Origin: an uncultured Gammaproteobacteria bacterium
GTDB lineage: Bacteria > Patescibacteriota > Microgenomatia > Levybacterales > UBA12049
Assembly (NCBI GenBank): GCA_964537895.1
Contig: CAZIDK010000001.1
Location: 51,229 to 115,228 of the forward strand
Reading direction: 5' to 3'
DNA length: 64,000 nt
Within the stretch, counting starts at the first letter, position 1; the number at the start of each line of letters is the position of its first letter. The translations under genes and the position numbers were made by a program. Of the stretch, positions 15,748 through 29,205 are shown piece by piece. The notes beneath the pieces were generated by a model. The model made no database searches, was not told the DNA's origin, and saw nothing but the letters and a program-made list of their open reading frames with translations.

Positions 15748-18700
15748 TGACTACCTCTTTTTGCGCTTCTTCTTCGCCTGTCTGACCAACGCTTATTTCC
15801 TGCGCTTTTTCAATGACTTCCCCTCCGCCCAACTCTTTTTGAAGTTCTTTAGCCTGCTTTTCTACTTTTTCCTCTGCCTTTTCTTCGGCCGCTGTCTCAA
15901 TTAAAGGCAGGTCTATAGGCTTATCCGAAATTGTTGCACCCATTGGAATAACGTTAAGTCCCAAGGCTTGTAATTCTTTAATTAAAACTTTGAAAGATTC
16001 TGGAACTTTGGGGGTTGGAATATCTGTTCCTTTAACAATTGCCTCAAATGCTTTGGCCCTGCCCACCACATCGTCCGATTTAATTGTTAGCATTTCCTGC
16101 AAAGTATATCTTGCTCTATGTGCTTCAAGTGCCCAAACTTCCATTTCTCCCAAGCGCTGTCCCCCCATTTGTGCTTTTCCGCCCAAGGGCTGCTGCGTAA
16201 CCAAAGAATAAGGCCCTGTTGAACGCGCATGTGTTTTATCTTCAACCATGTGGATTAACTTCATTACATACTCAACTCCGACAACTGCCGGATTATCATA
16301 AGCATCTCCTGTTCTTCCGTCGTAAAGAGTCGCTTTACCGTTTGCGGGAAGTCCGGCTTTTTTAAGTTCGTCGACGATTCTTTGTTCTTGTACTTCTTCA
16401 AAAACCGGAATTCCGACTTTTTTATTCAGCGTTAACTCCGCCCAACCTAAATGAGCTTCTAAAAGCTGACCCAAATTCATACGCGCCAGAACCGAAATTG
16501 GGGAAATAATAATATCAACCGCTGTTCCGTTGGCCAAATGCGGCATATCGACTTCCGGCAAAATTCTTGAAATAACACCTTTGTTTCCGTGTCTTCCTGC
16601 AAGCTTGTCTCCGATTACAACGTGCCTAAATTGAGCAACTTCAACAATAATCTTTCTTAAAGTCCCCGGCTCCAATTCATCGCCTTTTTTCCTGTCAAGA
16701 ATATGAACACTGATGACCGTTCCTCTTTCTCCATGAGGCATTCGAAGCGACGTGTCTCTTACTTCTCTTGCTTGTTCTCCGAATATTGCCCTCAAGAGTC
16801 TTTCCTCCGCAGTTAATTCCGTTTCTCCTTTTGGAGCGATTTTACCCACAATTATATCTCCTGGGCCGACTCCGCTTCCGACAACTACGATTCCGTCTTC
16901 GTCAAGGTTAGCCAAATCCTCTTCGGAAACATTCGGAATATCCCTGGTTGTCTCCTCCGGTCCTAATTTTGTTTCAACCACCGCCGCCTCATATTTTTCA
17001 ATATGAATTGACGACAAAACATCTTCTTTAACTAACCTGTCGGAAATAACAATTCCGTCTTCATATCCAAGGCCGTCTAAAGACGTATAAGCAATTAAAA
17101 GATTTTGTCCGAGAGCCAATTCTCCGTTATCCGAAGCAGGTCCATCAACGAGTAAATCGCCTTTCTTAACTTTTTGGAGCGTAACAACCATTGTTTTTTG
17201 GGTATAAGCGGTTGCCTGAGAAGTTCTTTTGAATGAATCGATATTATAACTTAATTCTTCTTTTTGGCCTTTGCCTTTTATTGTAACTTTGGAAGCGTCC
17301 GCATAGGTAATTTCTCCATCATACGGAGCAAGGATTACTCTTTCCATAACCGAGGATATGGATTTTTCCATACCCGTTCCGACAATTGGACTTTTTGGTA
17401 TTACTAAAGGAACCGCCTGACACTGCATATGGGTTCCCATTAAGGCTCTATTTGCTTCGTCATGGCTTACAAAAGGAATAAGGGACGCCGCGCTTCCGAC
17501 AACCTGTCTTGGAACAACGTCAACAAATTCAACATTTTCCCTTTCGGTTTCAATAAATTCTCCTTGGTATCTTGCCGGCACTCGGTCTTCCTCAATAATA
17601 TCTTTATCGGACAACACTTCCGCGTGGGTAATGTAATGCTCTCTTTCGTCGTCTGCTGTCATGTAAACTAACTCCTTTGTTGCTTTTGAAACAACATTTT
17701 TACCCCTGTTTTCATGAACAACTTTTCTGTAAGGAGATTCTAAAAATCCGTATTCGTTAATTCTTGTATATAAAGCCAAATAGGTTACCAAACCGATATT
17801 CGGACCCTCGGGGCTTCTGATAGGACAGACTCTTGAATACTGCGAGCTGTTTATATCGCGGATAGAAAAAGCCGCTCTTTCCCTGGAAATTCCGCCGGTT
17901 CCCATAACCGTTAAGCGGTTTAGGTTGTCTATTTCGGAAAGCGGGTTTGTTTGGTCTAGGATGGTGGAAAGCTGTGAGGTTCTAAAAAATTCATTGATTG
18001 AGGCCATAATTGGTCTTGCATTAATAAGTCCTGCAATGGAAACAGGAATGTCGGGCTGAATAAGGGTCATTCTTTCTTTTATGCTTCTTTCAAGCCTTAA
18101 AACACCAATTCTAAAAGCAGTGGTCGCAACCAGCTCGCCAACGCATCTAACGCGTCTGTTTGCCAAAGAGTCAATATCGTCAACTCCATTTTCTCCTTTA
18201 GCAAGACTAATAAGAAAACTGATTGCGCCGATAATATCATCTACGGTTAAAATGCGGACATCTTCGTTAGCAGGATTAAAACCTGTTGTTTCCTGTAATT
18301 TTTTATTTATTTTGTATCTTCCGACACCCCCAAGATCATATCTTCTGTTGTTAAAAAACATGCCGTTAAAATTTTCTCTTACTTTGTCTAAAACCACGGG
18401 CTCGCCCGGATGCATTTTTCTGAAAATTTCAATTAGAGCACCTGTTGCGTCTCCCGTTTCGTCTTTTTGCAATGTATTTTGGATGAATGAGGTTTTCCCG
18501 TCTGCCTCCAAGTTTTTGAATTTTTCTCTTATATCGTCATTTGAGGAGATTCCGAGGGCGCGAAGGAAAGTTGAAGCTAAAAACTTTCTTCTTCTGTCAA
18601 TCTTAACCATGATAGTTTCGTGTCTTGTGGTTGTAAATTCAAGCCAAGACCCGTGAACAGGTCTAATTTCCGCTGTGTATAAATTTTTTCCCGTAACATT

Positions 18701-19162
18701 ATCCTGTATAGCTGTAAAGAAAACACCGGGACTTCTAACCAGCTGGCTTACAACCGCTCTTTCTATTCCGTTAACGATAAACGTAGCCCTGTCTGTCATC
18801 TGGGGTATATCTCCTAAGAATACTTCCTGGTCGATTGTTGAGTTGGTTTTTTTATTAATGAGGGTTGCGTTAACATAAAGAGGAGCATCGTAGGTTAATC
18901 CTTTGCTTAAACAGACTGTCGGATCACTGCTGATTTTTCCAAGTCTATAATCTTTCAAAACCAGGTTCCAGTTTTTTTCCGTAAAATCGTCTATTGGGGA
19001 TATTTCCTGAAGAATCTGGGCAATTCCTTTTTCCAAAAACCATTGATAGGATTCTTTTTGAATTTTGAGTAAATCTAAATTAGGTAATAAGGAATGTTGT
19101 TTTCCCCAATTAGTTCTTATAATATGATCCTTGTTGTCTGTCTTATCGGATTTTTTTGCCAT
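15740..19162 (-). CDS. rpoB: DNA-directed RNA polymerase beta subunit
   Basis: Full-length beta homology (1140 aa), conserved regions throughout. Confidence 0.95.
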   Translation of the reverse strand: MAKKSDKTDNKDHIIRTNWGKQHSLLPNLDLLKIQKESYQWFLEKGIAQILQEISPIDDFTEKNWNLVLKDYRLGKISSDPTVCLSKGLTYDAPLYVNATLINKKTNSTIDQEVFLGDIPQMTDRATFIVNGIERAVVSQLVRSPGVFFTAIQDNVTGKNLYTAEIRPVHGSWLEFTTTRHETIMVKIDRRRKFLASTFLRALGISSNDDIREKFKNLEADGKTSFIQNTLQKDETGDATGALIEIFRKMHPGEPVVLDKVRENFNGMFFNNRRYDLGGVGRYKINKKLQETTGFNPANEDVRILTVDDIIGAISFLISLAKGENGVDDIDSLANRRVRCVGELVATTAFRIGVLRLERSIKERMTLIQPDIPVSIAGLINARPIMASINEFFRTSQLSTILDQTNPLSEIDNLNRLTVMGTGGISRERAAFSIRDINSSQYSRVCPIRSPEGPNIGLVTYLALYTRINEYGFLESPYRKVVHENRGKNVVSKATKELVYMTADDEREHYITHAEVLSDKDIIEEDRVPARYQGEFIETERENVEFVDVVPRQVVGSAASLIPFVSHDEANRALMGTHMQCQAVPLVIPKSPIVGTGMEKSISSVMERVILAPYDGEITYADASKVTIKGKGQKEELSYNIDSFKRTSQATAYTQKTMVVTLQKVKKGDLLVDGPASDNGELALGQNLLIAYTSLDGLGYEDGIVISDRLVKEDVLSSIHIEKYEAAVVETKLGPEETTRDIPNVSEEDLANLDEDGIVVVGSGVGPGDIIVGKIAPKGETELTAEERLLRAIFGEQAREVRDTSLRMPHGERGTVISVHILDRKKGDELEPGTLRKIIVEVAQFRHVVIGDKLAGRHGNKGVISRILPEVDMPHLANGTAVDIIISPISVLARMNLGQLLEAHLGWAELTLNKKVGIPVFEEVQEQRIVDELKKAGLPANGKATLYDGRTGDAYDNPAVVGVEYVMKLIHMVEDKTHARSTGPYSLVTQQPLGGKAQMGGQRLGEMEVWALEAHRARYTLQEMLTIKSDDVVGRAKAFEAIVKGTDIPTPKVPESFKVLIKELQALGLNVIPMGATISDKPIDLPLIETAAEEKAEEKVEKQAKELQKELGGGEVIEKAQEISVGQTGEEEAQKEVVNE

Positions 19163-19261: not shown

Positions 19262-19430
19262 AGTTTATACCATAGAAATTAAGCCTGTGTCAAGGAGTAA
19301 AATTTACTCCGAAGACCCTGAGTTAAATCGAACGGGTCAAGCCCCAAATTACAAGAGCGCTGACCCTGAGCGTTACAATCCTGAGCGTAGTCGAAGGAAC
19401 GTCGAAGAGGCAAGGAGTAAAATTTATATC
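19262..19430. repeat. REP/MITE-like repeat, copy C, flanked by a 16-bp direct repeat
   Basis: The 16-mer caaggagtaaaattta occurs at 19291-19306 and 19411-19426. The core shares tcgaacgggtcaag, gaccctgagcgttacaatc and gtcgaaggaa modules with copy F. Confidence 0.55.
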
Positions 19431-19849: not shown

Positions 19850-19864
19850 ATTATACCACGCGGG
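19850..19864 (-). promoter_or_regulatory. Conserved promoter module CCCGCG-TGGTATAAT, 7 nt upstream of the ATG (leaderless)
   Basis: Minus sense: taatttCCCGCGTGGTATAATttttgtATG. The same module precedes the genes at 20733, 21859 and 22769. Confidence 0.55.
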
Positions 19865-20037
19865 AAATTAAATCATACTTACGCAAACCTTGCAATCCAA
19901 CAAAGAACGTTAAGGTTTTGTGACTGAGTGCGTCAGGGGAATTCCTCAGCTTACTGAAAGTGAGATTGAGGAAGGGGTGAAATTACCCGACAAACGAAGG
20001 AACAAAAATAGTTCGGCTTGGCTTGCAAAAAGTTTTG

Positions 20038-20058
20038 CGCTACTTTCCAAAAAGTAGC
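20038..20058 (-). terminator. Candidate hairpin terminator downstream of the 20102-20407 gene
   Basis: GCTACTTT-ccaa-AAAGTAGC 8-bp stem, then a ttttt-containing tail in minus sense. Confidence 0.35.
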
Positions 20059-20101
20059 AGAGAAAATTAAATCAAATAAAACCAGCTGCTAAGAAATCAA
20101 A

Positions 20102-20407
20102 CTAAATAATTTTTACTCTGTGAGTAAGAATATTTCCCCACGTCATCATTTGCTCGGCCCACTCAATTTTTTCCTGTTGGGTTTTTATGTTTTTTTTTTC
20201 AAGCAATAAGTATTCTTCCAAGAATTTATCAAAGGTTTTTTGAAAAGGCTTGGAAAGAGAGGATTTATCAATGGAATCTATATACTCTTTTGTTTCTTCC
20301 AAAAAAATATCTATTCTTTTTTTCTTTTTTTCGTAATCATCAGCCGCCAGATTTCCTATTCTATTTAGGTTCATGGCAATATCTAATATTTTTGCTTTAT
20401 TACTCAT
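20102..20407 (-). CDS. Hypothetical small protein (101 aa)
   Basis: ORF only; 4-nt overlap with the upstream gene. Confidence 0.4.
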   Translation of the reverse strand: MSNKAKILDIAMNLNRIGNLAADDYEKKKKRIDIFLEETKEYIDSIDKSSLSKPFQKTFDKFLEEYLLLEKKNIKTQQEKIEWAEQMMTWGNILTHRVKII

Positions 20408-20742: not shown

Positions 20743-20758
20743 ATTATACCACGCGGGG
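20743..20758 (-). promoter_or_regulatory. Conserved promoter module CCCCGCG-TGGTATAAT (leaderless), copy 2
   Basis: Minus sense: ccccgcgTGGTATAATcaaaaaacgATG. Confidence 0.55.
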
Positions 20759-20761
20759 AAA

Positions 20762-21469
20762 TTAAGGAAGTGATTCGCAGGCAAGTCCGTCGCCATCGGA
20801 GTCAAGTCTATGCGGATCGCTACTAGGCCCGCCTTGAGATATAAAAAAAGCTTGAGCTTGCGTATGAGTTGCAAAATCAGAGCAATCTTTATCTTCTGCT
20901 ATATTTTGAACAGGAACGCTTTTTGTTGTTGTTGGTTTTACAGTAGTTGGATTATTTACAGGACACGTCCCCCACAAACCCAGATTATTTTCTCTTGCAT
21001 ATCTTTCAAAACTATTAAACTTCTCAAGCATTTTTGTCGGATATTGTTTATAAGAAAAAGCATATCCTTGCTTTATCATTTCTCCATTAATAAAAGTCGC
21101 CTTGCTATCGGGTAAATATACATATCTAAGCAGTCTCTTGTATTTATCTCTGTTTCCCTGCGTTGAATCATCAACCAGTTTTACATATTTTCCTAAGACA
21201 AAAGATTTCATTTTGTCCGACGCGGCCTTACCAAAACACTGAACAGGTTTTCTCGGGTCAACGGTTTCCGGTGTATCTATTCCCAAAAGCCTTACGCTCT
21301 CGTTTTTTCCTCGAATACTAACAGTTATGGTATCTCCGTCGACAACCTTAACAACTTTAAATAATTTTTTCTTATCCATTTCTGAATCCTTATAAGAAAA
21401 GACGGGGTTAGTGTTAAAAACAGAAAGAAGTAAAAAAAACAAGAAGGCAAAAACAAACATTCTCTTCAT
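20762..21469 (-). CDS. Secreted thermonuclease (SNase-like) with a C-terminal Excalibur calcium-binding domain
   Basis: N-terminal signal peptide. A central region resembles the staphylococcal nuclease fold. C-terminal DSDGDGLACE matches the Excalibur DxDxDGxxCE motif. Confidence 0.6.
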   Translation of the reverse strand: MKRMFVFAFLFFLLLSVFNTNPVFSYKDSEMDKKKLFKVVKVVDGDTITVSIRGKNESVRLLGIDTPETVDPRKPVQCFGKAASDKMKSFVLGKYVKLVDDSTQGNRDKYKRLLRYVYLPDSKATFINGEMIKQGYAFSYKQYPTKMLEKFNSFERYARENNLGLWGTCPVNNPTTVKPTTTKSVPVQNIAEDKDCSDFATHTQAQAFFISQGGPSSDPHRLDSDGDGLACESLP

Positions 21470-21859: not shown

Positions 21860-21869
21860 AAGTTAACAA

Positions 21870-21883
21870 ATTATACCACGGGG
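21870..21883 (-). promoter_or_regulatory. Conserved promoter module CCCCG-TGGTATAAT (leaderless), copy 3
   Basis: Minus sense: ccccgTGGTATAATttgttaacttATG. Confidence 0.55.
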
Positions 21884-21918
21884 AGATTTTGACTAGGAAG
21901 TCAAATTAAAATATGGAA

Positions 21919-21944: not shown

Positions 21945-22040
21945 ATATGATATAACGGACGCATTACCGGAGCTGGATACTAAGCTTAGTAAGCTTAAAA
22001 GTCAGCGGGAGAATTTAAATTGGGCTAAGAAGTCAAATTA

Positions 22041-22769: not shown

Positions 22770-22775
22770 AATATG

Positions 22776-22790
22776 AGTATATCACGGGGG
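22776..22790 (-). promoter_or_regulatory. Conserved promoter module CCCCCG-TGATATACT (leaderless), copy 4
   Basis: Minus sense: cccccgTGATATACTcatattATG. Confidence 0.45.
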
Positions 22791-22800
22791 AAAATTCGTG

Positions 22801-22895
22801 GCTAATTATAATCTCTTCGAGCTCCTCGAGTCTGAGCCTCGGCGTCGAAGACCTGAGTCTCAGAGCCGAAGGCCTGAGTGAGTCGAAGGAGAAGT
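22801..22895. repeat. REP/MITE-like repeat, copy D (contains an exact 45-nt duplicate of 40884-40928)
   Basis: 22813-22857 (ctcttcgagctcctcgagtctgagcctcggcgtcgaagacctgag) equals 40884-40928. Followed by imperfect ~13-nt tandem units (ccgaaggcctgag-like). Confidence 0.7.
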
Positions 22896-22927
22896 CAAAT
22901 TAATTTTTCTTGCCTTATAATCAAATT

Positions 22928-23173: not shown

Positions 23174-23257
23174 CCGCGGGTTGAGCGGAGCGAAATACTC
23201 CTTACTATGAGTAGAGCGAAATGGTGAGTGCGATTGAACCACTAAGAAGTCAGATTA
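23174..23257. repeat. Direct repeat flanking the toxin-antitoxin cassette, copy 1
   Basis: cgggttgagcgRagcRaaat...ggtgagtg...gaaccactaagaagtcaRatta, shared with 24040-24099 in the same orientation. Confidence 0.7.
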
Positions 23258-23409
23258 TAGACTTTGCACGTTCTCTTCAATTTTTGTCAGACAAACTCTG
23301 GGACATTGACTTTTTGACCAAAAGTGAGTAAACTTCTACGAAGTAGATGTTTACTTCAATACAGGATTATTTAGCTTTGATATAAAAATATTATAAGATA
23401 TAATTTAAT

Positions 23410-23616
23410 ATGCCAGATATAATTGAAACAAAACCAAACATCCTAGGCGGAATGCCAGTTATAAAAGGAACTAGGATTCCTATCGCGCGTGTTGTGGCAT
23501 TATATGTTCAAGGCTATAAGATAAAAGATTTCAAGAGAGATTATCCTTATCTCACAATTACAAAAGAGGATATAGCAAACATATTCTCCCATTATTCTCA
23601 CCTTGCATCAAAATAA
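23410..23616 (+). CDS. DUF433 family antitoxin-like protein
   Basis: GGMPVIKGTRIPIARVV matches the DUF433 core. TATAAT is 5 nt upstream of the ATG. Confidence 0.6.
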   Translation: MPDIIETKPNILGGMPVIKGTRIPIARVVALYVQGYKIKDFKRDYPYLTITKEDIANIFSHYSHLASK

Positions 23617-23962
23617 GAATACAAACAAAAAGCGTAAGTTTAGATTATTATTAGATTCTGCATTTGCTAAACCTGATCAATTTCCCAAGCTAGCTAAAAA
23701 GGCAAAGTTATTACATGTAGTTCATGATTTGGGATTATCTAAACAGGCTGCGGATATAGATATCTACCAAAAGGCACTTGAAGAAAACTGCTTCGTATTA
23801 ACAATTAACTTTAGGCATTTTAGGAAGTTTGTTGTTAGTGGTAAACCGGGAGTAATTGGAATAGATTCGCAGCTGTCTAATGACGAAATTGACTCAATTG
23901 TTGTAAAGTTTATCTCTGGGAAAAATCCTGATGACTTTCTAGGAAAAGCTATTAAAATTTAA
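23603..23962 (+). CDS. DUF5615 (PIN-like / Mut7-C RNase-like) toxin-like protein
   Basis: LLLDSAF...VVHDLGL...ADIDIYQKALEENCFVLTINFRHF...GVIGI pattern of DUF5615. Overlaps the DUF433 gene by 14 nt, a typical toxin-antitoxin arrangement. Confidence 0.55.
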   Translation: MHQNKNTNKKRKFRLLLDSAFAKPDQFPKLAKKAKLLHVVHDLGLSKQAADIDIYQKALEENCFVLTINFRHFRKFVVSGKPGVIGIDSQLSNDEIDSIVVKFISGKNPDDFLGKAIKI

Positions 23963-24045
23963 CTGCTTTCTACAATTTTTATTTCTTCCGGAGTGAGGGC
24001 TGAAAGATTAGTCCAAAAAACCGCAGAGGCTAAGGTTTTCCCGCC
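23959..24045 (-). pseudogene. Remnant 3' end of a DNA methyltransferase-like gene (ends ...LSALTPEEIKIVESS*)
   Basis: The minus-strand frame encodes the TaqI_C-like C-terminal tail (LTxEEIxIVE) seen in N6-adenine methyltransferases / type IIG enzymes, but no long ORF precedes it. The 21-mer ttctacaatttttatttcttc recurs at 26050-26070. Confidence 0.4.
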
Positions 24046-24099
24046 GGGTTGAGCGAAGCAAAATGGTGAGTGAAATCGAACCACTAAGAAGTCAAATTA
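24040..24099. repeat. Direct repeat flanking the toxin-antitoxin cassette, copy 2
   Basis: Matches 23174-23257 and ends with the same gaaccactaagaagtcaaatta motif. Confidence 0.7.
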
Positions 24100-24118
24100 A
24101 TTTTTCGACTCTAAAGAT

Positions 24119-24781
24119 TTATAGTTGTTCCGTTAAGAATCTTTGCACTCCTTCAAGCATAGATTTGACATCCTCTGTCTTGTATTCACTAAATTTACCA
24201 TGGTCAGCACTGTCTCTTATTGCTTTCCAGGCTTGGATTTGTTTCTGAAGCAATCGATTGTAAATTTCTTTGTCTGCTAACTTTGCATTAAGCGATCCAA
24301 TATCATCGCCTGATTTGACATCTATTGTGTGTTTTTGTGCAATTTGTCTTAAACCGTTTTCTAAAACAGCACCTACAAGAGAAGCAGCGGAGTCTTTATA
24401 ATTATTGTCCAAAAGATGTTTGGCCATCTGGATAAAATCAGTAAAAATCTCTGCGCTTACTAAATCCCTAACTTTCGTTAAATATCCAAGTTCCAGATCT
24501 TCCTTCAGCGCTTTAAGAATGCCTACACCGTGATCAACATCTCCCGGGAAGGCTGACTTAACTTCCTCAACAAAATTTTTATAATAAGGGCTGTTTTCTC
24601 CGCAAACCAACAGGATGAAGTTTTGTGCATTATTTTTCCACTCGTGAAACGAAGCAGTATTAACTCTGTCAGGAGCCACAGCATAAGCCGAACTGTTGCT
24701 ATAACGCGTAGAAGCAACGCTTTGTGCTTTTGTCAGAAGCTGTGTAGCGCGTTCAATAAGTTTTTCTGTTGTTGAGTTCAT
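24119..24781 (-). CDS. HEPN-like protein (Rx4H motif near the C-terminus)
   Basis: All-helical 220-aa protein with AIRDSADHGKF (R-x4-H), the HEPN RNase signature. Sits 20 nt downstream of the DUF1508 gene and has its own GAGGA Shine-Dalgarno. Confidence 0.4.
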   Translation of the reverse strand: MNSTTEKLIERATQLLTKAQSVASTRYSNSSAYAVAPDRVNTASFHEWKNNAQNFILLVCGENSPYYKNFVEEVKSAFPGDVDHGVGILKALKEDLELGYLTKVRDLVSAEIFTDFIQMAKHLLDNNYKDSAASLVGAVLENGLRQIAQKHTIDVKSGDDIGSLNAKLADKEIYNRLLQKQIQAWKAIRDSADHGKFSEYKTEDVKSMLEGVQRFLTEQL

Positions 24782-24801
24782 ATTTTAATTTCCTCTAAAA
24801 A

Positions 24802-25005
24802 TTATGTTTCTACAGGATAAGTTCTGTAAATATTTGCAGCCGCTGCATTAGCTATGACTAGATTCGCTGCATGAACTGCATCAGCCTCGTTTTCATAGGA
24901 TTCACTCCAGCAGATATCGTTTCCATTGGATGAAACAAATACAAAATAAATTTGCCCATCCCTATTCTTTCTTAGTTCAAATTTAAATTCTCCCATTTTT
25001 ACCAC
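24802..25005 (-). CDS. DUF1508 (YegP-like) single-domain protein
   Basis: FELRKNRDGQIYFVFVSSNGNDICWSESYENEADAVHAANLV matches the YegP/UPF0339 repeat unit. Confidence 0.55.
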   Translation of the reverse strand: MVKMGEFKFELRKNRDGQIYFVFVSSNGNDICWSESYENEADAVHAANLVIANAAAANIYRTYPVET

Positions 25006-25020
25006 CTGCCTTTTTCCCTG

Positions 25021-25058
25021 TTGACAAATAAAATTTGTTGTAATATTATTACAACACT
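25021..25058 (+). promoter_or_regulatory. XRE gene promoter (TTGACA-N17-TATTAT) overlapped by a 10/11-bp inverted repeat operator
   Basis: TTGACA at 25021-25026 and TATTAT at 25044-25049, with the ATG 9 nt later. Inverted-repeat arms TTGTTGTAATA (25035-25045) and TATTACAACAC (25047-25057) span the -10 box, which suggests autoregulation. Confidence 0.5.
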
Positions 25059-25457
25059 ATGAATAAAAGTCAAGTACCATTTAATCAAACCTTCGGAGAA
25101 TTTTTCAGACAAAAAAGAATTTCCTTAGACTTTACATTAAGATCTTTTTGCGAAAGGTATAATTATGACCCTGGTAATATCAGTAGACTTGAAAGAGACA
25201 TTCTCTCCCCAAGTGTAGATCAGCAAAAACTTGAGGGATATGCTGCAGCTTTGAAAATACCACGTGATAGCGAGGAGTGGACAATGTTTTTTGATTTAGC
25301 TCATACTGCAAAAGGTAAAATTCCCGAAGATATTCTAAGTGACCCAAAAGTTCTTTCAATTCTACCAGCTTTCTATAGAACAGCTAGGGGAGAAAAATTG
25401 GATAAAAAGAAAATAGACCAGTTAATTAAACTTCTTAATGAGAATAATAAAAAATAA
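25059..25457 (+). CDS. XRE-family helix-turn-helix transcriptional regulator
   Basis: HTH region with LRSFCERYNYDPGNISRLERD; 132 aa; TAATG stop/start overlap with the next gene. Confidence 0.65.
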   Translation: MNKSQVPFNQTFGEFFRQKRISLDFTLRSFCERYNYDPGNISRLERDILSPSVDQQKLEGYAAALKIPRDSEEWTMFFDLAHTAKGKIPEDILSDPKVLSILPAFYRTARGEKLDKKKIDQLIKLLNENNKK

Positions 25458-26044
25458 TGAAAGAACCAAGCTTGACCTATCAAGACGTAGCTAATGCTGC
25501 AAATAACTTTTTAAAAACTTACCATTCTTCTCTTAAATTACCAATTCCCATAGAAGAAATAGTTGAGCTTAAAATGAATATTGCTATAGTTGCAGTACCG
25601 GGAATTAAGAAGCTCTTGGGGATAGATGCATTTATAAGTTCTGATTTTACTCAGATTACTGTGGATGAAAACTCCCTACTTAAATTTACTAAAAGAACTA
25701 GATTTTCCATAGCACATGAAATAGGTCATTTGATATTGCATAAAGATTGGTACGAGAAATATGGTCCTAAAGACTTTGAAGATTATTTGACGTTTTACGA
25801 TCGCATAGATAATAAAGTATATAAATATATGGAGATTCAAGCTCATACATTTGCTGGATTGGTTTTAGTTCCATCCAGTCTATTATTCAATGAGCTTAAA
25901 ATCAGAATTGGTAAAATCCCACATCTAGAAATACCTGAGATTCTTATTCCAGTAGCTCAGGATTTATTAGAGATATTTGAAGTATCAGGAGAAGTAATGT
26001 TTAGACGATTGCAAAAAGAAAAAATAATAAAATCCAATTCTTAA
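25457..26044 (+). CDS. ImmA/IrrE family metallo-endopeptidase (COG2856)
   Basis: Contains HEIGHLILH (HExxH). Translationally coupled to the XRE gene, the classic XRE-ImmA arrangement. Confidence 0.7.
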   Translation: MKEPSLTYQDVANAANNFLKTYHSSLKLPIPIEEIVELKMNIAIVAVPGIKKLLGIDAFISSDFTQITVDENSLLKFTKRTRFSIAHEIGHLILHKDWYEKYGPKDFEDYLTFYDRIDNKVYKYMEIQAHTFAGLVLVPSSLLFNELKIRIGKIPHLEIPEILIPVAQDLLEIFEVSGEVMFRRLQKEKIIKSNS

Positions 26045-26185
26045 GAATTTTCTACAATTTTTATTTCTTCGGGGGTTAGTCCGTAAAGTTTGTAAACTTC
26101 TTCATCGATTTTTTTATCTATCTTTTCAATTTCAGCTTTTATCGAATTCCATTGATTAGAATTTTCTGAAGTAGCCAATATTTTT
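26041..26185 (-). pseudogene. Remnant 3' end of a DNA methyltransferase-like gene (ends ...IDEEVYKLYGLTPEEIKIVENS*)
   Basis: The minus-strand frame reads SENSNQWNSIKAEIEKIDKKIDEEVYKLYGLTPEEIKIVENS*, a TaqI_C-like C-terminal tail. Only about 45 codons, preceded by a stop. Shares ttctacaatttttatttcttc with 23968-23988. Confidence 0.45.
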
Positions 26186-26220
26186 TTTATTTAAAATCAA
26201 AATTTGATTATTTAAATCCA

Positions 26221-26940
26221 TTAAATACTATTGCTGATAATACCACTTTCTTTAAAACTAAAATATTCATCTGAAGTAACTATCAGATGATCAATTATTG
26301 AAATACCTACTAATTTACCTGCTTCTACAAGTCTATTTGTTGTAGATATATCTTCCTCTGATGGTTTGGAATCTCCTGATGGATGATTGTGAGAAATAAT
26401 AATTTGTGCGATATTTTCTTTTATGGCCTTTTTAAAAACTTCTCTGGGATGCACTAAGCTTGCATTTAAGGTACCAATGCTAATTTCTTCGTTTATTAAT
26501 TTATTTCGTGTATCAAAATACAAAATTGTAAAATGTTCTTCTTTTTTACTTCCTATTTTTGTTTGAAGATAGTCAGCAACTAATTTAGAAGAATTTAATA
26601 AAATTTTAGATGATATTTTTTCTTTGGAATATCGCTCAGAAATCGCTTTAAATAAAATTAACCCCAAAGCATTTGAACGACCAATTCCCTTAATTGCAAT
26701 TAATTCTATTATATCTGCATCCAATACTCCTTTGAGATTTTTGAACTTTTTAATAGCCTCTTTGGCTATTTGTTTGCAATCTTTACGCGGAGTACCCAAT
26801 GTCAACAATAATTCAACTATCTCGTAATCCAAAAATCCATTTAAACCAGAATCAATAAATTTTTCTCGGAGTCTTTTTCTATGCCCTTCGGAGTGATTTA
26901 TTTTTTTAATATTTGAATCAGAAATGCTTTTATTTTTCAT
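26221..26940 (-). CDS. RadC-like JAB/JAMM domain protein
   Basis: C-terminal HNHPSGDSKPSEEDISTTNRL matches the RadC JAMM metal-binding motif (HxHP...SxxD). N-terminal RPRERL-like GHRKRLREKF. Start placed at the ATG at 26940, overlapping the upstream gene stop by about 11 nt. Confidence 0.75.
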   Translation of the reverse strand: MKNKSISDSNIKKINHSEGHRKRLREKFIDSGLNGFLDYEIVELLLTLGTPRKDCKQIAKEAIKKFKNLKGVLDADIIELIAIKGIGRSNALGLILFKAISERYSKEKISSKILLNSSKLVADYLQTKIGSKKEEHFTILYFDTRNKLINEEISIGTLNASLVHPREVFKKAIKENIAQIIISHNHPSGDSKPSEEDISTTNRLVEAGKLVGISIIDHLIVTSDEYFSFKESGIISNSI

Positions 26941-28855
26941 TAGTCTCTTTATCGATATTAAATGAAGCTCCATTGGAATCATTATCGTATAAAGTAGAAC
27001 TTATTCTTTGATTACTTAAATGTTTTTCAAAATAACCTTGAGTTTCTGGATCAACTGAGTAAATATAACAACCTTTCATTCCTCTAGTCATGAGTGTTCG
27101 ATATGTGTTTTTAATAATCATATCTGCCATTCTTTTTGACTCTTCTGGATTTTCTTTAAGCCTTTTCTTTATTCCCTTGAATGACTGATCAGAAGATGCT
27201 CGTTTTGTTGCATCAGTAATAATCTTGCCATTTCGAACAACCATATCTGGACCAATTATTACTCCTACATAGTCCAACTCCAGCCCTTGAGAAGTATGTA
27301 TGCAGCCCACCTCACTTACAGAATCAGGATGAATTAACCACGATTGACCATGTAAATATAAATTCCAAGTCGCCTTATAATCATCAATCACGATATCCTT
27401 TAATTTAGCATTTTTCTTGCTTATCCATTTCCAACAATAACCTGCTAACAATCTTGATTTATTATTTTCTTGATTTAGGTCAATTATTTTTTTATGAAGA
27501 ATCGAAGGATTATCCATAACTTTAAAATCATAATTAATATCTTCTAATGATTCATTTGCTGTTTCTCTTATCTGTAATAAATTATCAATCCAGGCTAAGT
27601 AACCATCTGATCCATTACATCTAAACTGCGAAGCTAACTCTAGAGATGTGACTTTTGCTCCCAAGCTTTCTGCCCATTTTATAATTTCTGACTTTTTACC
27701 TATATCTTTCAATGTAACTCTTTGGTTCTCATCGATAAAAAAAACACAAAGCTTGGACACATTTATTAACTCTTTTATTTGATTTTCTCCTAAATGACTA
27801 AACAGTCCTGACTTGGCATTAAGTCTATGCGCCTCATCAACAATAAGTGAATCAAAAGTATTAGCTTCAATATCATAAAATGAACCAGACGAGCTAAATA
27901 AATTTGAGATACGAGTTTTTGTAAATTTACCACTGAGTTTCACTTGGTATACTTCACGAGGTGCTGAATTTTTTGTGACGTATTGCGTAACATTCCCTCT
28001 TTTCGTAAGCTCTGTTAATAAGTTTATTGCAACAATTGATTTACCAGTACCAGGACCTCCTTCGACTATCAGCACATTTTTATTACGCTCAGATGATTCT
28101 TCTGCTAGTTTAAGCGCAGTTTCATATACGATTTTTTGATCATCGATTAGTATGAATTCCTTGTTACCCTCAAGCATTGAAGCAAGACTATCAACTAATG
28201 CCTTTGATGGCCTAATTTTTCCATTTTCAATACTATACAAGATATTTGTTTTATCACCATATTTTACAAATCTTTTTATAAATTCTTGTAATTTTAAGGC
28301 ATCGGTTTTTAGAAAAGCAGGGGCCTTGTCTGTGTATTCCTTATAAAAAACATTGGTAATAATATCGTCTGCCTCGTAATTATGAAGATATGCGCAGGGA
28401 ACTAGAGATATGTTATCTGTTTGAACAGCACTATTAAAATCTTCTAATAATGTTGCATACGACCAGACTTGATATGATGGGTGGGGAACTTCTCCATAAA
28501 AATTTGTATTAAGAACCCCATCTTTTTCAGTCAAACTAACACCTTCACTCCATTGTTTCAACTCGACAATTACGGCTACTTTTCTGTTCTCATTATTTGT
28601 ACCGGTAATTATAAAATCTATACGTTTAGACGTTTGAGGAATTTTATATTCAATTGCAATACCAGCATCATCAGGAATACTCGAATCGTTAATAACATTA
28701 CTCATATAAGGCATGGACTTACGCCATGAGTTAATCTCGCTTTTACCTGTGGCGTGTCCCATCTCGCGTACAAATGAAGTAAGAATTTGTTGTTCTACCT
28801 GTCCAGACAAAACATCACTTAAAAACCCCTTTTTATTAGATGAATAAACGATCAT
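26930..28855 (-). CDS. Fusion protein: N-terminal PD-(D/E)xK nuclease-like domain plus DUF2075-type SF1-helicase-like P-loop ATPase
   Basis: N-terminus RIDFIITG...VAVIVELKQW (D...ELK). Walker A VEGGPGTGKS and Walker B LIVDEAHRL. The C-terminal CIHTSQGLELDYVGVII resembles the helicase 2B motif. 641 aa. Confidence 0.65.
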   Translation of the reverse strand: MIVYSSNKKGFLSDVLSGQVEQQILTSFVREMGHATGKSEINSWRKSMPYMSNVINDSSIPDDAGIAIEYKIPQTSKRIDFIITGTNNENRKVAVIVELKQWSEGVSLTEKDGVLNTNFYGEVPHPSYQVWSYATLLEDFNSAVQTDNISLVPCAYLHNYEADDIITNVFYKEYTDKAPAFLKTDALKLQEFIKRFVKYGDKTNILYSIENGKIRPSKALVDSLASMLEGNKEFILIDDQKIVYETALKLAEESSERNKNVLIVEGGPGTGKSIVAINLLTELTKRGNVTQYVTKNSAPREVYQVKLSGKFTKTRISNLFSSSGSFYDIEANTFDSLIVDEAHRLNAKSGLFSHLGENQIKELINVSKLCVFFIDENQRVTLKDIGKKSEIIKWAESLGAKVTSLELASQFRCNGSDGYLAWIDNLLQIRETANESLEDINYDFKVMDNPSILHKKIIDLNQENNKSRLLAGYCWKWISKKNAKLKDIVIDDYKATWNLYLHGQSWLIHPDSVSEVGCIHTSQGLELDYVGVIIGPDMVVRNGKIITDATKRASSDQSFKGIKKRLKENPEESKRMADMIIKNTYRTLMTRGMKGCYIYSVDPETQGYFEKHLSNQRISSTLYDNDSNGASFNIDKETNEK

Positions 28856-28857
28856 AA

Positions 28858-29205
28858 TTATAATTTGTTATATTTAGTGTGCTTTCCTTTTGCTTTTTTA
28901 ACAGGGTATTTCTTCTTATTTTCCTTCATTTTTTTATCGAAAGCTTTTAGTAAGTCTATGTTTAAATCGTGGCTCATTAACAAAGTCCAATACAAGACAT
29001 CGGAAAGTTCATCAGCAATTTCATTCTTATGTTTTTTAACATATTCATCCATTTCTTCTTTACTTTGCCAAAGAAAATGCTGTAAAACTTCAGAAGCCTC
29101 TAGGGAAAGCGCAATAGAAGAATCTTTTGGATTATGAAACTGCTTCCAATCTCTTGCGTTGCGATATTTAATTATAATATCTATTAAATTTTTGATATCC
29201 GACAT
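28858..29205 (-). CDS. MazG-like all-alpha nucleotide pyrophosphohydrolase
   Basis: RNARDWKQFHNPKD...ALSLEASEVLQHF...EIADELSDVLYW matches the MazG/YpjD NTP-PPase helix pattern. 115 aa; 2-nt gap to the downstream gene. A TAAAAT -10 lies 6 nt upstream of the ATG. Confidence 0.6.
   Translation of the reverse strand: MSDIKNLIDIIIKYRNARDWKQFHNPKDSSIALSLEASEVLQHFLWQSKEEMDEYVKKHKNEIADELSDVLYWTLLMSHDLNIDLLKAFDKKMKENKKKYPVKKAKGKHTKYNKL

What the first reader, a model, noticed from the sequence alone, without database searches (positions are those of the whole stretch)
23959..26185. Two decayed methyltransferase 3' ends (LTPEEIKIVE tails) sharing a 21-nt identical core, both abutting plus-strand cassette genes
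Minus-strand frames at 23959-24045 and 26041-26185 encode TaqI_C-like C-terminal tails (...YKLYGLTPEEIKIVENS*) with no upstream catalytic ORF. The shared 21-mer ttctacaatttttatttcttc (23968-23988 and 26050-26070) brackets the DUF1508/HEPN/XRE/ImmA block in direct orientation. This suggests cassette exchange at the 3' end of an ancestral methyltransferase gene, or duplication of that end by integration, and it points to a former restriction-modification locus.
Basis: partly seen in the sequence, partly recalled or inferred. Interest (0 to 1): 0.5.

Follow-up and report, generated by a model that had tools for sequence, protein, structure and literature searches.

The report
Orphan restriction-enzyme gene tails bracketing defence cassettes
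Two short leftovers of the 3' end of a type IIG restriction-modification gene bracket small defence and toxin-antitoxin gene cassettes, and the same repeated-tail layout sits downstream of intact genes of this kind in many other phyla, so the tail looks like a reusable recombination point for swapping defence genes.

Summary
Minus-strand frames at 23959-24042 (tail1) and 26041-26187 (tail2) match the last ~55 residues of type IIG restriction-modification enzymes (HSDR_N + Eco57I/N6_Mtase + TaqI_C). The window has no other methyltransferase homology. The shared block is 22 nt, unique in the window, and brackets HEPN/DUF1508/XRE/ImmA in direct orientation. Each tail's stop codon overlaps the stop of a convergent plus-strand cassette.

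The tails are dead remnants, not a small-protein family. A Levybacteria relative (L031) has an intact 908-aa type IIG gene whose last 116 nt are 85% identical to tail2.

Among 80 species genomes with this tail, 12 have a full-length gene followed by 1-3 extra tail copies. All 18 extra copies lie downstream on the same strand, as 56-182-nt repeats. HEPN, Fic, HicB, YafQ, Bro-N, DUF3800 or IS200-like cassettes lie between them. Two related genomes carry different cassettes between the same two tails. Three relatives (L105, L107-L111, L112) also keep an orphan tail downstream of RadC, each followed by a different gene.

Best reading: a cassette array delimited by tails that has lost its enzyme gene, with tails serving as portable homology for gain, loss and exchange. 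The recombination mechanism is inferred. A site-specific route is not excluded.

The parts
26041..26187 (-). tail2: remnant of the last ~48 codons plus stop of a type IIG R-M gene. It is an orphan. The annotated 45-aa ORF starts at a TTG with no obvious ribosome-binding site.
   Evidence: The tail HMM scores it at 93 bits. Thirty-seven full-length type IIG proteins match it with their last 35-45 residues at 55-85% identity. Over 26050-26165 it is 85% identical in DNA to the 3' end of the intact L031 gene.
23959..24042 (-). tail1: a more decayed remnant of about 27 codons. The 3' part (LTPEEIKIVE) is intact and the 5' part is degraded.
   Evidence: The tail HMM scores it at 34 bits over profile positions 32-56. 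tblastn matches only 13-15 residues. It carries the 22-nt identical block, and similarity to tail2 upstream of that block falls to 55-59%.
26049..26070 (.). 22-nt identical core, copy in tail2. It encodes (P)EEIKIVE on the minus strand.
   Evidence: Homology of L015 to the window ends at 26071, and homology of L031 ends at 26050.
23967..23988 (.). 22-nt identical core, copy in tail1, in direct orientation 2,082 bp from the other copy.
25021..26044 (+). XRE (25059-25457) and ImmA/M78 peptidase (25457-26044) with their own promoter-like site (25021-25049). This is a discrete mobile two-gene module that converges on tail2.
   Evidence: Pfam gives HTH_3 and Peptidase_M78. PADLOC gives capP and RmrA. 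The promoter-like site matches 11 of 12 consensus positions. Homology to L016-L019 starts at 25018-25036 and ends at or near the ImmA stop.
24119..25005 (-). DUF1508 (24802-25005) and a HEPN protein (24119-24781), transcribed divergently from XRE/ImmA. This is the likely effector part of the bracketed cassette.
   Evidence: Pfam hits. Relatives that carry XRE/ImmA have other genes in this position.
23410..23962 (+). DUF433 and DUF5615 two-gene (toxin-antitoxin-like) cassette that converges on tail1.
   Evidence: Pfam hits, a promoter-like site at 23377-23404, and a 4-nt stop/stop overlap with tail1.
24050..24099 (-). REP-like 50-nt element, upstream copy. Together with 23208-23257 it flanks the tail1 + DUF5615/DUF433 unit.
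   Evidence: family D1 (84% identity).
23208..23257 (-). REP-like 50-nt element, downstream copy.
   Evidence: family D1.
26221..29205 (-). Conserved MazG-like / SLFN-type helicase / RadC block. The tail-delimited variable region begins at its 3' end.
   Evidence: Pfam hits. The block is 72-87% identical in DNA in L105, L106, L107 and L112, and homology stops at the end of RadC.

Best explanation
Both features are non-coding leftovers of the extreme 3' end of a type IIG (Eco57I-like) restriction-modification gene: the ~55-codon tail after the TaqI_C specificity domain. They are the repeat units of a tail-delimited cassette array in a hypervariable spot between RadC and rpoB. Reading the minus strand, the order is RadC, tail2, [ImmA-XRE and DUF1508-HEPN], REP-like element, tail1, [DUF5615-DUF433], REP-like element, DUF5678, and so on.

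In genomes that keep the enzyme gene, small defence or toxin-antitoxin cassettes sit immediately 3' of it. Each is followed by another copy of the tail. The tail is strongly conserved as protein, so it gives a short shared stretch of DNA between otherwise unrelated loci.

Inferred mechanism: homologous or microhomology recombination within the tails inserts, excises or swaps [cassette + tail] units. The crossover falls near the last conserved codons (...EEIKIVE). This refreshes the 3' part of a tail while its 5' part decays. In this lineage the enzyme gene body has been lost and the array remains.

Shown: the homology, the array architecture, the cassette polymorphism and the break in divergence at the core. 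Inferred: that recombination depends on homology, and the order of events in this window.
For: The tail is the C-terminus of type IIG enzymes (and for L031).

L031 (Levybacteria) has an intact 908-aa type IIG gene whose last 116 nt are 85% identical to tail2. Orthologues of the window's SNase gene and of the 19890-20071 segment lie within 5 kb.

Among 80 species genomes, 54 have a full-length gene only, 12 have a full-length gene plus orphan tails, and 14 have orphans only. All 18 extra tails lie downstream of the gene (0 in 154 kb searched upstream against 18 in 298 kb downstream), and none is on the opposite strand.

The repeats are 56-182 nt long and 80-97% identical within a locus, but differ at synonymous sites between loci. 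Their 3' ends cluster near the stop codon and their 5' ends vary.

The cassettes between tails are HEPN_AbiU2, ApeA, Bro-N, HTH, DUF3800, DUF4926, YafQ, Fic, HicB and IS200-like.

L067 and L095 have flanks 85-96% identical and the same two tails, but different cassettes and a different specificity domain. L083 and L092 show the same pattern.

In relatives, what follows the RadC-side tail differs: ImmA/XRE in L107, DUF5678 and then rpoB in L112, Bro-N in L105.

The same XRE/ImmA cassette (92% nt) in L015 carries the tail core to the 3' end of a Type_ISP_C gene.

Identity between tail1 and tail2 breaks sharply at the core. Codon changes between tail2 and the L107 tail are 9 synonymous to 2 non-synonymous (my count on the sequences), so the divergence arose in functional genes.
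Against: No empty-site and filled-site pair was found for this window; same-strain contigs L013 and L014 show the identical layout.

The identical block is only 22 nt, which is short for RecA-type recombination.

Three breakpoints coincide at the 5' edge of the core: the tail1/tail2 break, the L015 junction and the L105 insertion. This could point to a site-specific process.

How the first tail duplication arises is not explained.

The 80 loci are the best tblastn matches to tail2, not a random sample.

L031 is only partly syntenic and lacks RadC beside its gene. Three relatives with the MazG-SLFN-RadC block carry an orphan tail and no methyltransferase, and L106 has neither. The enzyme gene may therefore never have sat exactly here.
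Confidence: 0.6

Rival explanations
1. Site-specific integration. The tail, and in this lineage the 22-nt core, is an attachment site for cassettes mobilised in trans by an unidentified recombinase. This would resemble SCC elements at the 3' end of rlmH or integron cassettes at attI/attC, with each integration producing direct repeats.
For: All tail copies are in direct orientation and downstream of the gene. The 3' boundaries of the repeats lie near the stop codon. Three independent breakpoints fall at the 5' edge of GAAGAAAT.... The cassettes lack mobility genes of their own.
Against: No integrase or recombinase was found among the ORFs of window 7.4-39 kb that I scanned, nor among the array cassettes, apart from IS200-like Y1 transposases in two arrays. 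No DNA site is conserved across taxa, because tails differ freely at synonymous positions. Repeat length varies from 56 to 182 nt with variable 5' ends.
Confidence: 0.15
2. Plain pseudogene debris. Two separate type IIG genes, or one that was duplicated, were deleted and left 3' stubs by chance. On this view the tails play no part in cassette turnover, and the shared 22-mer reflects common ancestry plus AT-rich codon bias.
For: R-M genes turn over rapidly. tail1 is heavily decayed. Orphan tails in other genomes carry frameshifts, stops and insertions.
Against: The orphan tails always keep the extreme 3' end and are always followed by a variable cassette. The arrays are strictly polar. Cassettes differ between conserved tails in sister genomes. 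Chance identity of the core has P about 0.015, and divergence breaks sharply at its edge. The tail persists downstream of RadC across lineages whose flanking block is only 72-87% identical.
Confidence: 0.17
3. The 45-aa ORF (tail2) and its relatives are a functional stand-alone small protein, for example a mimic of the enzyme's C-terminal helix that modulates type IIG enzymes.
For: The first search found 31 small ORFs at 51-96% identity. Changes between tail2 and the L107 tail are mostly synonymous.
Against: Many copies lack a start codon or carry a frameshift, an in-frame stop or an insertion. tail2 starts at a TTG with no obvious ribosome-binding site. The N-terminal extents are unrelated between copies. 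Within arrays the copies are DNA-level duplicates of the resident gene's end, extending past the stop codon.
Confidence: 0.05

Closest known systems
Insertion with long target duplication at R-M loci (Nobusato et al. 2000, as cited within PMC2853133; Furuta, Abe and Kobayashi 2010, PMC2853133)
   Same: Inserts with no mobility genes are flanked by long direct repeats of variable length (above 30 bp, up to about 400 bp) derived from the target. The phenomenon is tied to restriction-modification genes and was found by genome comparison.
   Different: In those cases the R-M system is the insert and the targets are arbitrary. Here the target is always the 3' tail of a type IIG gene, the inserts are small defence or toxin-antitoxin cassettes, and insertions stack into polar arrays.
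Abortive-infection, HEPN and toxin genes embedded in R-M operons (Anantharaman et al. 2013, PMC3710099; PrrC in EcoPrrI)
   Same: The same cargo classes (AbiU2, ApeA, HEPN-T, Fic/DOC, RhuM) are reported as linked to R-M operons.
   Different: That work describes gene-neighbourhood association. It does not describe duplicated gene tails as cassette boundaries or orphan tails left after the R-M gene is lost.
SCC elements at the 3' end of rlmH (orfX) in staphylococci, and genomic islands in tRNA 3' ends (from my own knowledge)
   Same: Integration occurs at the 3' end of a conserved gene. Direct repeats flank each element, tandem arrays form, and the gene end is restored.
   Different: Those systems use dedicated serine or tyrosine recombinases and a fixed short site. 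No recombinase and no fixed DNA site was found here.
Sedentary chromosomal integron cassette arrays (from my own knowledge)
   Same: Polar arrays of small, mostly promoterless or self-contained cassettes rich in toxin-antitoxin genes. The repeats are homogeneous within an array and differ between species.
   Different: There is no IntI, no attI and no attC-type imperfect hairpin. The repeat here is a piece of coding sequence.
Specificity-domain (TRD) exchange in type IIG and type I S genes by recombination in conserved flanks (PMC2853133, PMC3077401; pneumococcal tvr excision-reintegration, PMC6265443)
   Same: Conserved coding segments next to the specificity domain act as recombination arms. 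L067/L095 and L083/L092 also differ in their specificity domains.
   Different: Here the exchanged units lie outside the gene and are unrelated defence genes. There are no inverted copies and no locus recombinase.

Membership tests
Type IIG R-M enzyme (Eco57I-like: HSDR_N + N6_Mtase/Eco57I + TaqI_C + C-terminal tail) | N6-adenine methyltransferase catalytic domain | tested here: not met
   Neither tail gives a Pfam hit. tblastn with 37 full-length enzymes finds no catalytic-domain homology anywhere in the window.
Type IIG R-M enzyme (Eco57I-like: HSDR_N + N6_Mtase/Eco57I + TaqI_C + C-terminal tail) | TaqI_C specificity domain (PF12950) | tested here: not met
   No TaqI_C hit at E <= 1. In intact enzymes the tail lies after this domain; in L031, TaqI_C covers residues 717-838 of 908.
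Type IIG R-M enzyme (Eco57I-like: HSDR_N + N6_Mtase/Eco57I + TaqI_C + C-terminal tail) | C-terminal ~55-aa tail ending ...VYKLYGLTxEEIKIVE | tested here: met
   tail2 scores 93 bits and is up to 85% identical to the ends of full-length enzymes. tail1 is partial, at 34 bits over profile positions 32-56.
Type IIG R-M enzyme (Eco57I-like: HSDR_N + N6_Mtase/Eco57I + TaqI_C + C-terminal tail) | Intact full-length ORF | tested here: not met
   Four stop codons lie between RadC and tail2. tail1 is preceded by a REP-like element. Both are therefore remnants, not members.
Insertion with long target duplication | Direct repeats longer than 30 bp flanking an insert that has no mobility genes | tested here: inconclusive
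   In the window only 22 nt are identical, with 43 nt at 81%. The arrays in 12 other genomes meet the criterion, with repeats of 56-182 nt. The inserts lack integrases.
Insertion with long target duplication | A related genome with a single, unduplicated target at the same place | tested here: inconclusive
   L112 has RadC, a single tail, DUF5678 and rpoB in the same chromosomal context. It is too diverged (about 80% nt) to serve as a strict empty site. Same-strain contigs show no variant.
Integron | IntI integrase next to the array | tested here: not met
   No integrase among the ORFs scanned between window positions 7.4 and 39 kb.
Integron | attC-type imperfect hairpin sites | tested here: not met
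   The junction regions fold no better than shuffled sequence (z from -0.7 to +0.9). Rfam finds nothing there. No dedicated attC model was available.
Phase-variable R-M shufflon | Inverted copies of gene segments plus a locus recombinase | tested here: not met
   None of the tail copies in the 80 loci is on the opposite strand. Both copies in the window are direct.
Stand-alone small-protein family | A conserved intact ORF with a start codon across members | tested here: not met
   L012 has a frameshift, L002 a stop, L112 and L018 have no start, and L105 has an insertion.

The most novel reading that the evidence does not exclude
Type IIG R-M genes may anchor a previously unrecognised cassette-capture platform that is widespread across phyla. 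The repeated gene tail would play the role of an attC/attI-like site, used either by an unidentified trans-acting recombinase or by a process that depends on the R-M enzyme itself. Orphan tails would be kept as landing pads that go on recruiting defence cassettes after the enzyme gene is gone.
Probability: 0.15. Interest if true: 0.8.

Novelty: new variant of a known kind. Interest (0 to 1): 0.55.

Why it matters
Defence genes cluster in islands, but how small cassettes without any mobility gene get there is mostly unknown. If the conserved 3' tail of type IIG enzymes is a general recombination handle, it gives three things:
- a concrete, testable route for assembling and shuffling defence islands;
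- a simple sequence marker (extra tails) for finding unannotated defence cassettes, including in Patescibacteria;
- an explanation for the many short ORFs annotated as 'restriction endonuclease' in metagenomes.

For this window alone, it explains two odd micro-ORFs as scars of that process.

Tried and rejected
1. tRNA-derived attachment site. The REP-like element beside tail1 resembles a tRNA 3' end, but ARAGORN finds no tRNA in the window, and the only Rfam hit is a tRNA at 9806-9907.

2. Bidirectional terminator formed by the core and the end of ImmA or DUF5615. The folds are no better than shuffled sequence (z from -0.7 to +0.9), and the terminator scan finds nothing at either junction.

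3. Pfam assignment of the tails themselves. There was no hit even at E <= 1.

4. Solved structures containing the tail. There were no significant hits, so its structural role in the enzyme stays unknown.

5. Strain variants lacking the 2,082-bp block. Contigs encoding identical RadC and DUF5615 proteins show the same layout as the window.

6. An intact methyltransferase next to RadC in relatives. L105, L106, L107-L111 and L112 all lack one. Only L031, which has a different upstream context, keeps it.

7. Phage carriage of [tail + cassette] units. The viral scan gave only four loci. Three (L101-L103) were confirmed as type IIG genes by tblastn, and L104 carries the tail at the end of a long ORF.

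8. Simple circle-integration history for the window (a circle carrying ImmA...HEPN...tail1 5' part entering a RadC-tail-DUF5615 site). This is weakened because the RadC-tail-ImmA/XRE adjacency is shared with L107 and is therefore probably older.

9. Literature searches found no description of tail-repeat arrays. The search was limited and does not prove absence.
Full report
THE OBSERVATION

The window is a Patescibacteria (Microgenomates-like) chromosome. It carries the rpoB-rpoC-rpsL-rpsG-fusA operon on the minus strand (7459-19162) and families typical of this group, DUF5674 and DUF5678. RadC homologues place it near Levybacteria and Daviesbacteria.

Both minus-strand frames named in the finding exist. 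ORF 26041..26178 encodes MATSENSNQWNSIKAEIEKIDKKIDEEVYKLYGLTPEEIKIVENS*. ORF 23959..24084 ends ...AVFWTNLSALTPEEIKIVESS*.

The 21-mer occurs exactly twice in 64 kb, and no further copy appears with up to three mismatches. The chance expectation is 0.04, and no shuffle out of 100 gave two matches. The identical block is 22 nt (23967-23988 and 26049-26070), in direct orientation, 2,082 bp apart.

Each tail's stop codon overlaps by 4 nt the stop of a convergent plus-strand gene: ImmA for tail2 and DUF5615 for tail1.

WHAT THE TAILS ARE

Pfam gives no hit on either tail. The word-indexed protein search returned 31 hits, all ORFs of 30-70 aa.

The exhaustive profile search settled the point. It found 16,515 proteins at E <= 1e-3. 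Among them are many proteins of ~800-960 aa (and shorter ones of 460-720 aa) that carry the motif at their exact C-terminus. These have HSDR_N, Eco57I/N6_Mtase and TaqI_C domains, which makes them type IIG restriction-modification enzymes. The tail is the ~55 residues that follow the TaqI_C domain, not the domain itself.

I ran tblastn with 37 full-length enzymes against the window. Each matches 26038-26178 with its last 35-45 residues (E down to 3e-16, up to 85% identity). They match tail1 with only 13-15 residues. Nothing else in the window scores better than E about 0.09, so no catalytic remnant is present. A tail HMM scores tail2 at 93 bits and tail1 at 34 bits.

The small ORFs found elsewhere are decaying copies:
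- L012 has a frameshift.
- L002 has an in-frame stop.
- L112 and L018 have no start codon.
- L105 has a 30-nt insertion.

THE NEIGHBOURHOOD

Reading the minus strand, the order is as follows:
- MazG-like, SLFN-type helicase and RadC (29205-26221);
- tail2;
- convergent ImmA and XRE (26044-25059);
- DUF1508 and HEPN (25005-24119);
- a REP-like element;
- tail1;
- convergent DUF5615 and DUF433 (23962-23410);
- a second REP-like element;
- DUF5678, an alpha/beta hydrolase, Zincin_1, SNase, DUF5674, a 101-aa ORF, GNAT, and then rpoB.

ImmA matches the PADLOC models capP and RmrA. XRE/ImmA have their own promoter-like site at 25021-25049. They are transcribed divergently from DUF1508-HEPN. The bracketed block therefore reads as one regulated defence unit. 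That reading is an inference.

RELATIVES OF THIS LOCUS

The MazG-SLFN-RadC block is 72-87% identical in DNA in L105, L106, L107-L111 and L112. In every case homology stops at the end of RadC.

- L112 (Daviesbacteria) has the same chromosomal context as the window, from alaS to rpoB. Only RadC, a 27-codon dead tail, DUF5678 and an aspartyl protease precede rpoB.
- L107-L111 have RadC, a 38-aa tail and a convergent ImmA/XRE pair homologous to the window's. Other genes follow, including Bro-N.
- L105 (Levybacteria) has RadC, a RhuM-family pseudogene, a tail carrying a 30-nt insertion exactly between the LTP and EEI codons, and then Bro-N.
- L106 has no tail.

None of these has a methyltransferase.

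A different Levybacteria genome, L031, does have an intact 908-aa type IIG gene. Its last 116 nt are 85% identical to 26050-26165, and homology ends exactly where the core ends. Orthologues of the window's SNase gene and of the 19890-20071 segment lie 4-5 kb downstream of it. A type IIG gene of this lineage is therefore the source of tail2. Whether that gene ever sat directly after RadC is not shown.

THE GENERAL PATTERN

A scan of one genome per species returned 80 loci carrying the tail. I classified them with the tail HMM on stop-to-stop frames:
- 54 loci have a full-length gene only.
- 12 have a full-length gene plus one to three further tails.
- 14 have orphan tails only.

All 18 extra tails lie downstream of the gene, with none in 154 kb searched upstream against 18 in 298 kb downstream. 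None is on the opposite strand.

Within a locus the copies are DNA repeats of 56-182 nt at 80-97% identity. Their 3' ends cluster within about 15 nt of the stop codon and their 5' ends vary. Between loci the same peptide is encoded with free synonymous variation.

The genes between the copies are HEPN_AbiU2, ApeA, Bro-N, HTH, DUF3800, DUF4926, a YafQ pair, Fic/DOC, a HicB pair and IS200-like Y1 transposases. These are cargo classes already known to associate with R-M operons (PMC3710099).

L067 and L095 are related genomes whose flanks are 85-96% identical. They share the gene, both tails and the downstream genes. They carry different cassettes between the tails and a different specificity domain. 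L083 and L092 behave the same way.

The window's XRE/ImmA module is itself mobile. L016-L019 share it from 25018-25036 to the ImmA stop. In L015, which is 92% identical in DNA, homology runs to 26071, the end of the core. Beyond that point a Type_ISP_C gene end reads into the core in another frame.

HOW IT MOST LIKELY WORKS

What is shown:
- The tails are gene-end remnants.
- Tails form polar direct-repeat arrays 3' of type IIG genes.
- The cassettes between tails differ between related genomes.
- The variable DNA starts immediately after the last conserved codons.
- In the window, identity between the two tails is 22/22 in the core and 13/22 in the next 22 nt (P = 7e-4). Chance identity from codon usage has P about 0.015.
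- Codon changes between tail2 and the L107 tail are 9 synonymous to 2 non-synonymous (my count on the sequences). That divergence therefore arose in functional genes, not in orthologous dead remnants.

What is inferred: the conserved tail works as a portable homology arm. Recombination within tails integrates, excises and swaps [cassette + tail] units. Crossovers near the 3' end keep that part fresh while the 5' part decays. This would explain why every orphan keeps the extreme 3' end. The array can outlive the enzyme gene, as it has here.

The closest described process is 'insertion with long target duplication' at R-M loci (PMC2853133). In that process the R-M system is the insert and the target is arbitrary.

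RIVALS

A site-specific route is not excluded. Three breakpoints coincide at the 5' edge of the core, and orientation is strictly polar. Against it, I found no recombinase, no DNA site conserved across taxa, and repeat lengths that vary.

Plain debris with no role does not explain the polarity, the cassette polymorphism between conserved tails, or the break in divergence at the core.

A functional micro-protein is contradicted by the many broken copies.

A terminator role for the core is not supported.

NOVELTY AND LIMITS

My literature searches found the association between R-M operons and abortive-infection or HEPN genes, specificity-domain exchange, and long target duplication. They found no description of tail-repeat cassette arrays or of orphan tails as their remains. 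The search was limited, so absence is not proven.

The 80 loci are the best matches to tail2, not a random sample. No empty-site and filled-site pair exists for this window. The order of events here cannot be reconstructed. The dependence on homologous recombination is untested.

VERDICT

The window shows a degenerate, enzyme-less example of a wider architecture that seems not to have been described as such.

Noticed in passing
window 24084-24099, 23242-23257, 22887-22902, 22025-22040, 21893-21908, 20089-20104; L031 6445-6460: A 16-nt motif, TAATTTGACTTCTTAG when read on the minus strand, sits 0-25 nt after the stop codons of most of the successive minus-strand cassette genes (the 23242 copy has no minus-strand gene upstream of it). 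All copies have one orientation and cluster in 20.0-24.1 kb. An exact copy follows the 102-aa gene just 3' of the intact type IIG gene in L031. It may be a second kind of cassette boundary.
   Followed up: partly
window 24050-24099 and 23208-23257: Direct repeats of 50 nt (84% identical), REP-like and somewhat resembling a tRNA 3' end, flank the tail1 + DUF5615/DUF433 unit (family D1). No tRNA was detected there.
   Followed up: partly
window 19290-19420 and 22810-22890: GC-rich imperfect repeats of the GAGCGAAGC / GTCGAAGGA type lie in intergenic DNA of an otherwise AT-rich region. A similar 30-nt GC-rich insertion sits inside the L105 tail.
   Followed up: no
window 9806-9907 (-): Rfam calls a tRNA of 102 nt here (51 bits). 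ARAGORN finds no tRNA in the window. This may reflect an intron or a long insertion.
   Followed up: no
window 19850-19870, 20750-20770, 21868-21885, 22775-22795: Minus-strand cassette genes are each preceded by a near-identical extended -10 element of the CCCGCGTGGTATAAT type, read on the minus strand.
   Followed up: no
L015 770-1121: The same XRE/ImmA cassette (92% nt identity) abuts the 3' end of a Type_ISP_C gene. That ORF runs into the tail core in another frame, with a 1-nt deletion, and ends ...KKIDEEIEL*.
   Followed up: yes
L054 25-189 and 343-2250: Two tail copies 318 nt apart are 100% identical over the 57-96 nt compared. The second is fused to the N-terminus of a 636-aa ORF.
   Followed up: no
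L031 6476-7760: A reverse transcriptase (RVT_1, with a weak SMODS hit) and an HTH gene lie just downstream of the intact type IIG gene. A RhuM/Fic gene and a DUF3800 gene lie upstream. Together they form a compact defence island in a Levybacteria genome.
   Followed up: no
window 26930-26982: The SLFN-type helicase ORF (26930-28855) and the RadC ORF (26221-26982) overlap by 53 nt as listed, and similar overlaps appear in several relatives (L013, L106, L107-L111). The RadC start may be miscalled.
   Followed up: no
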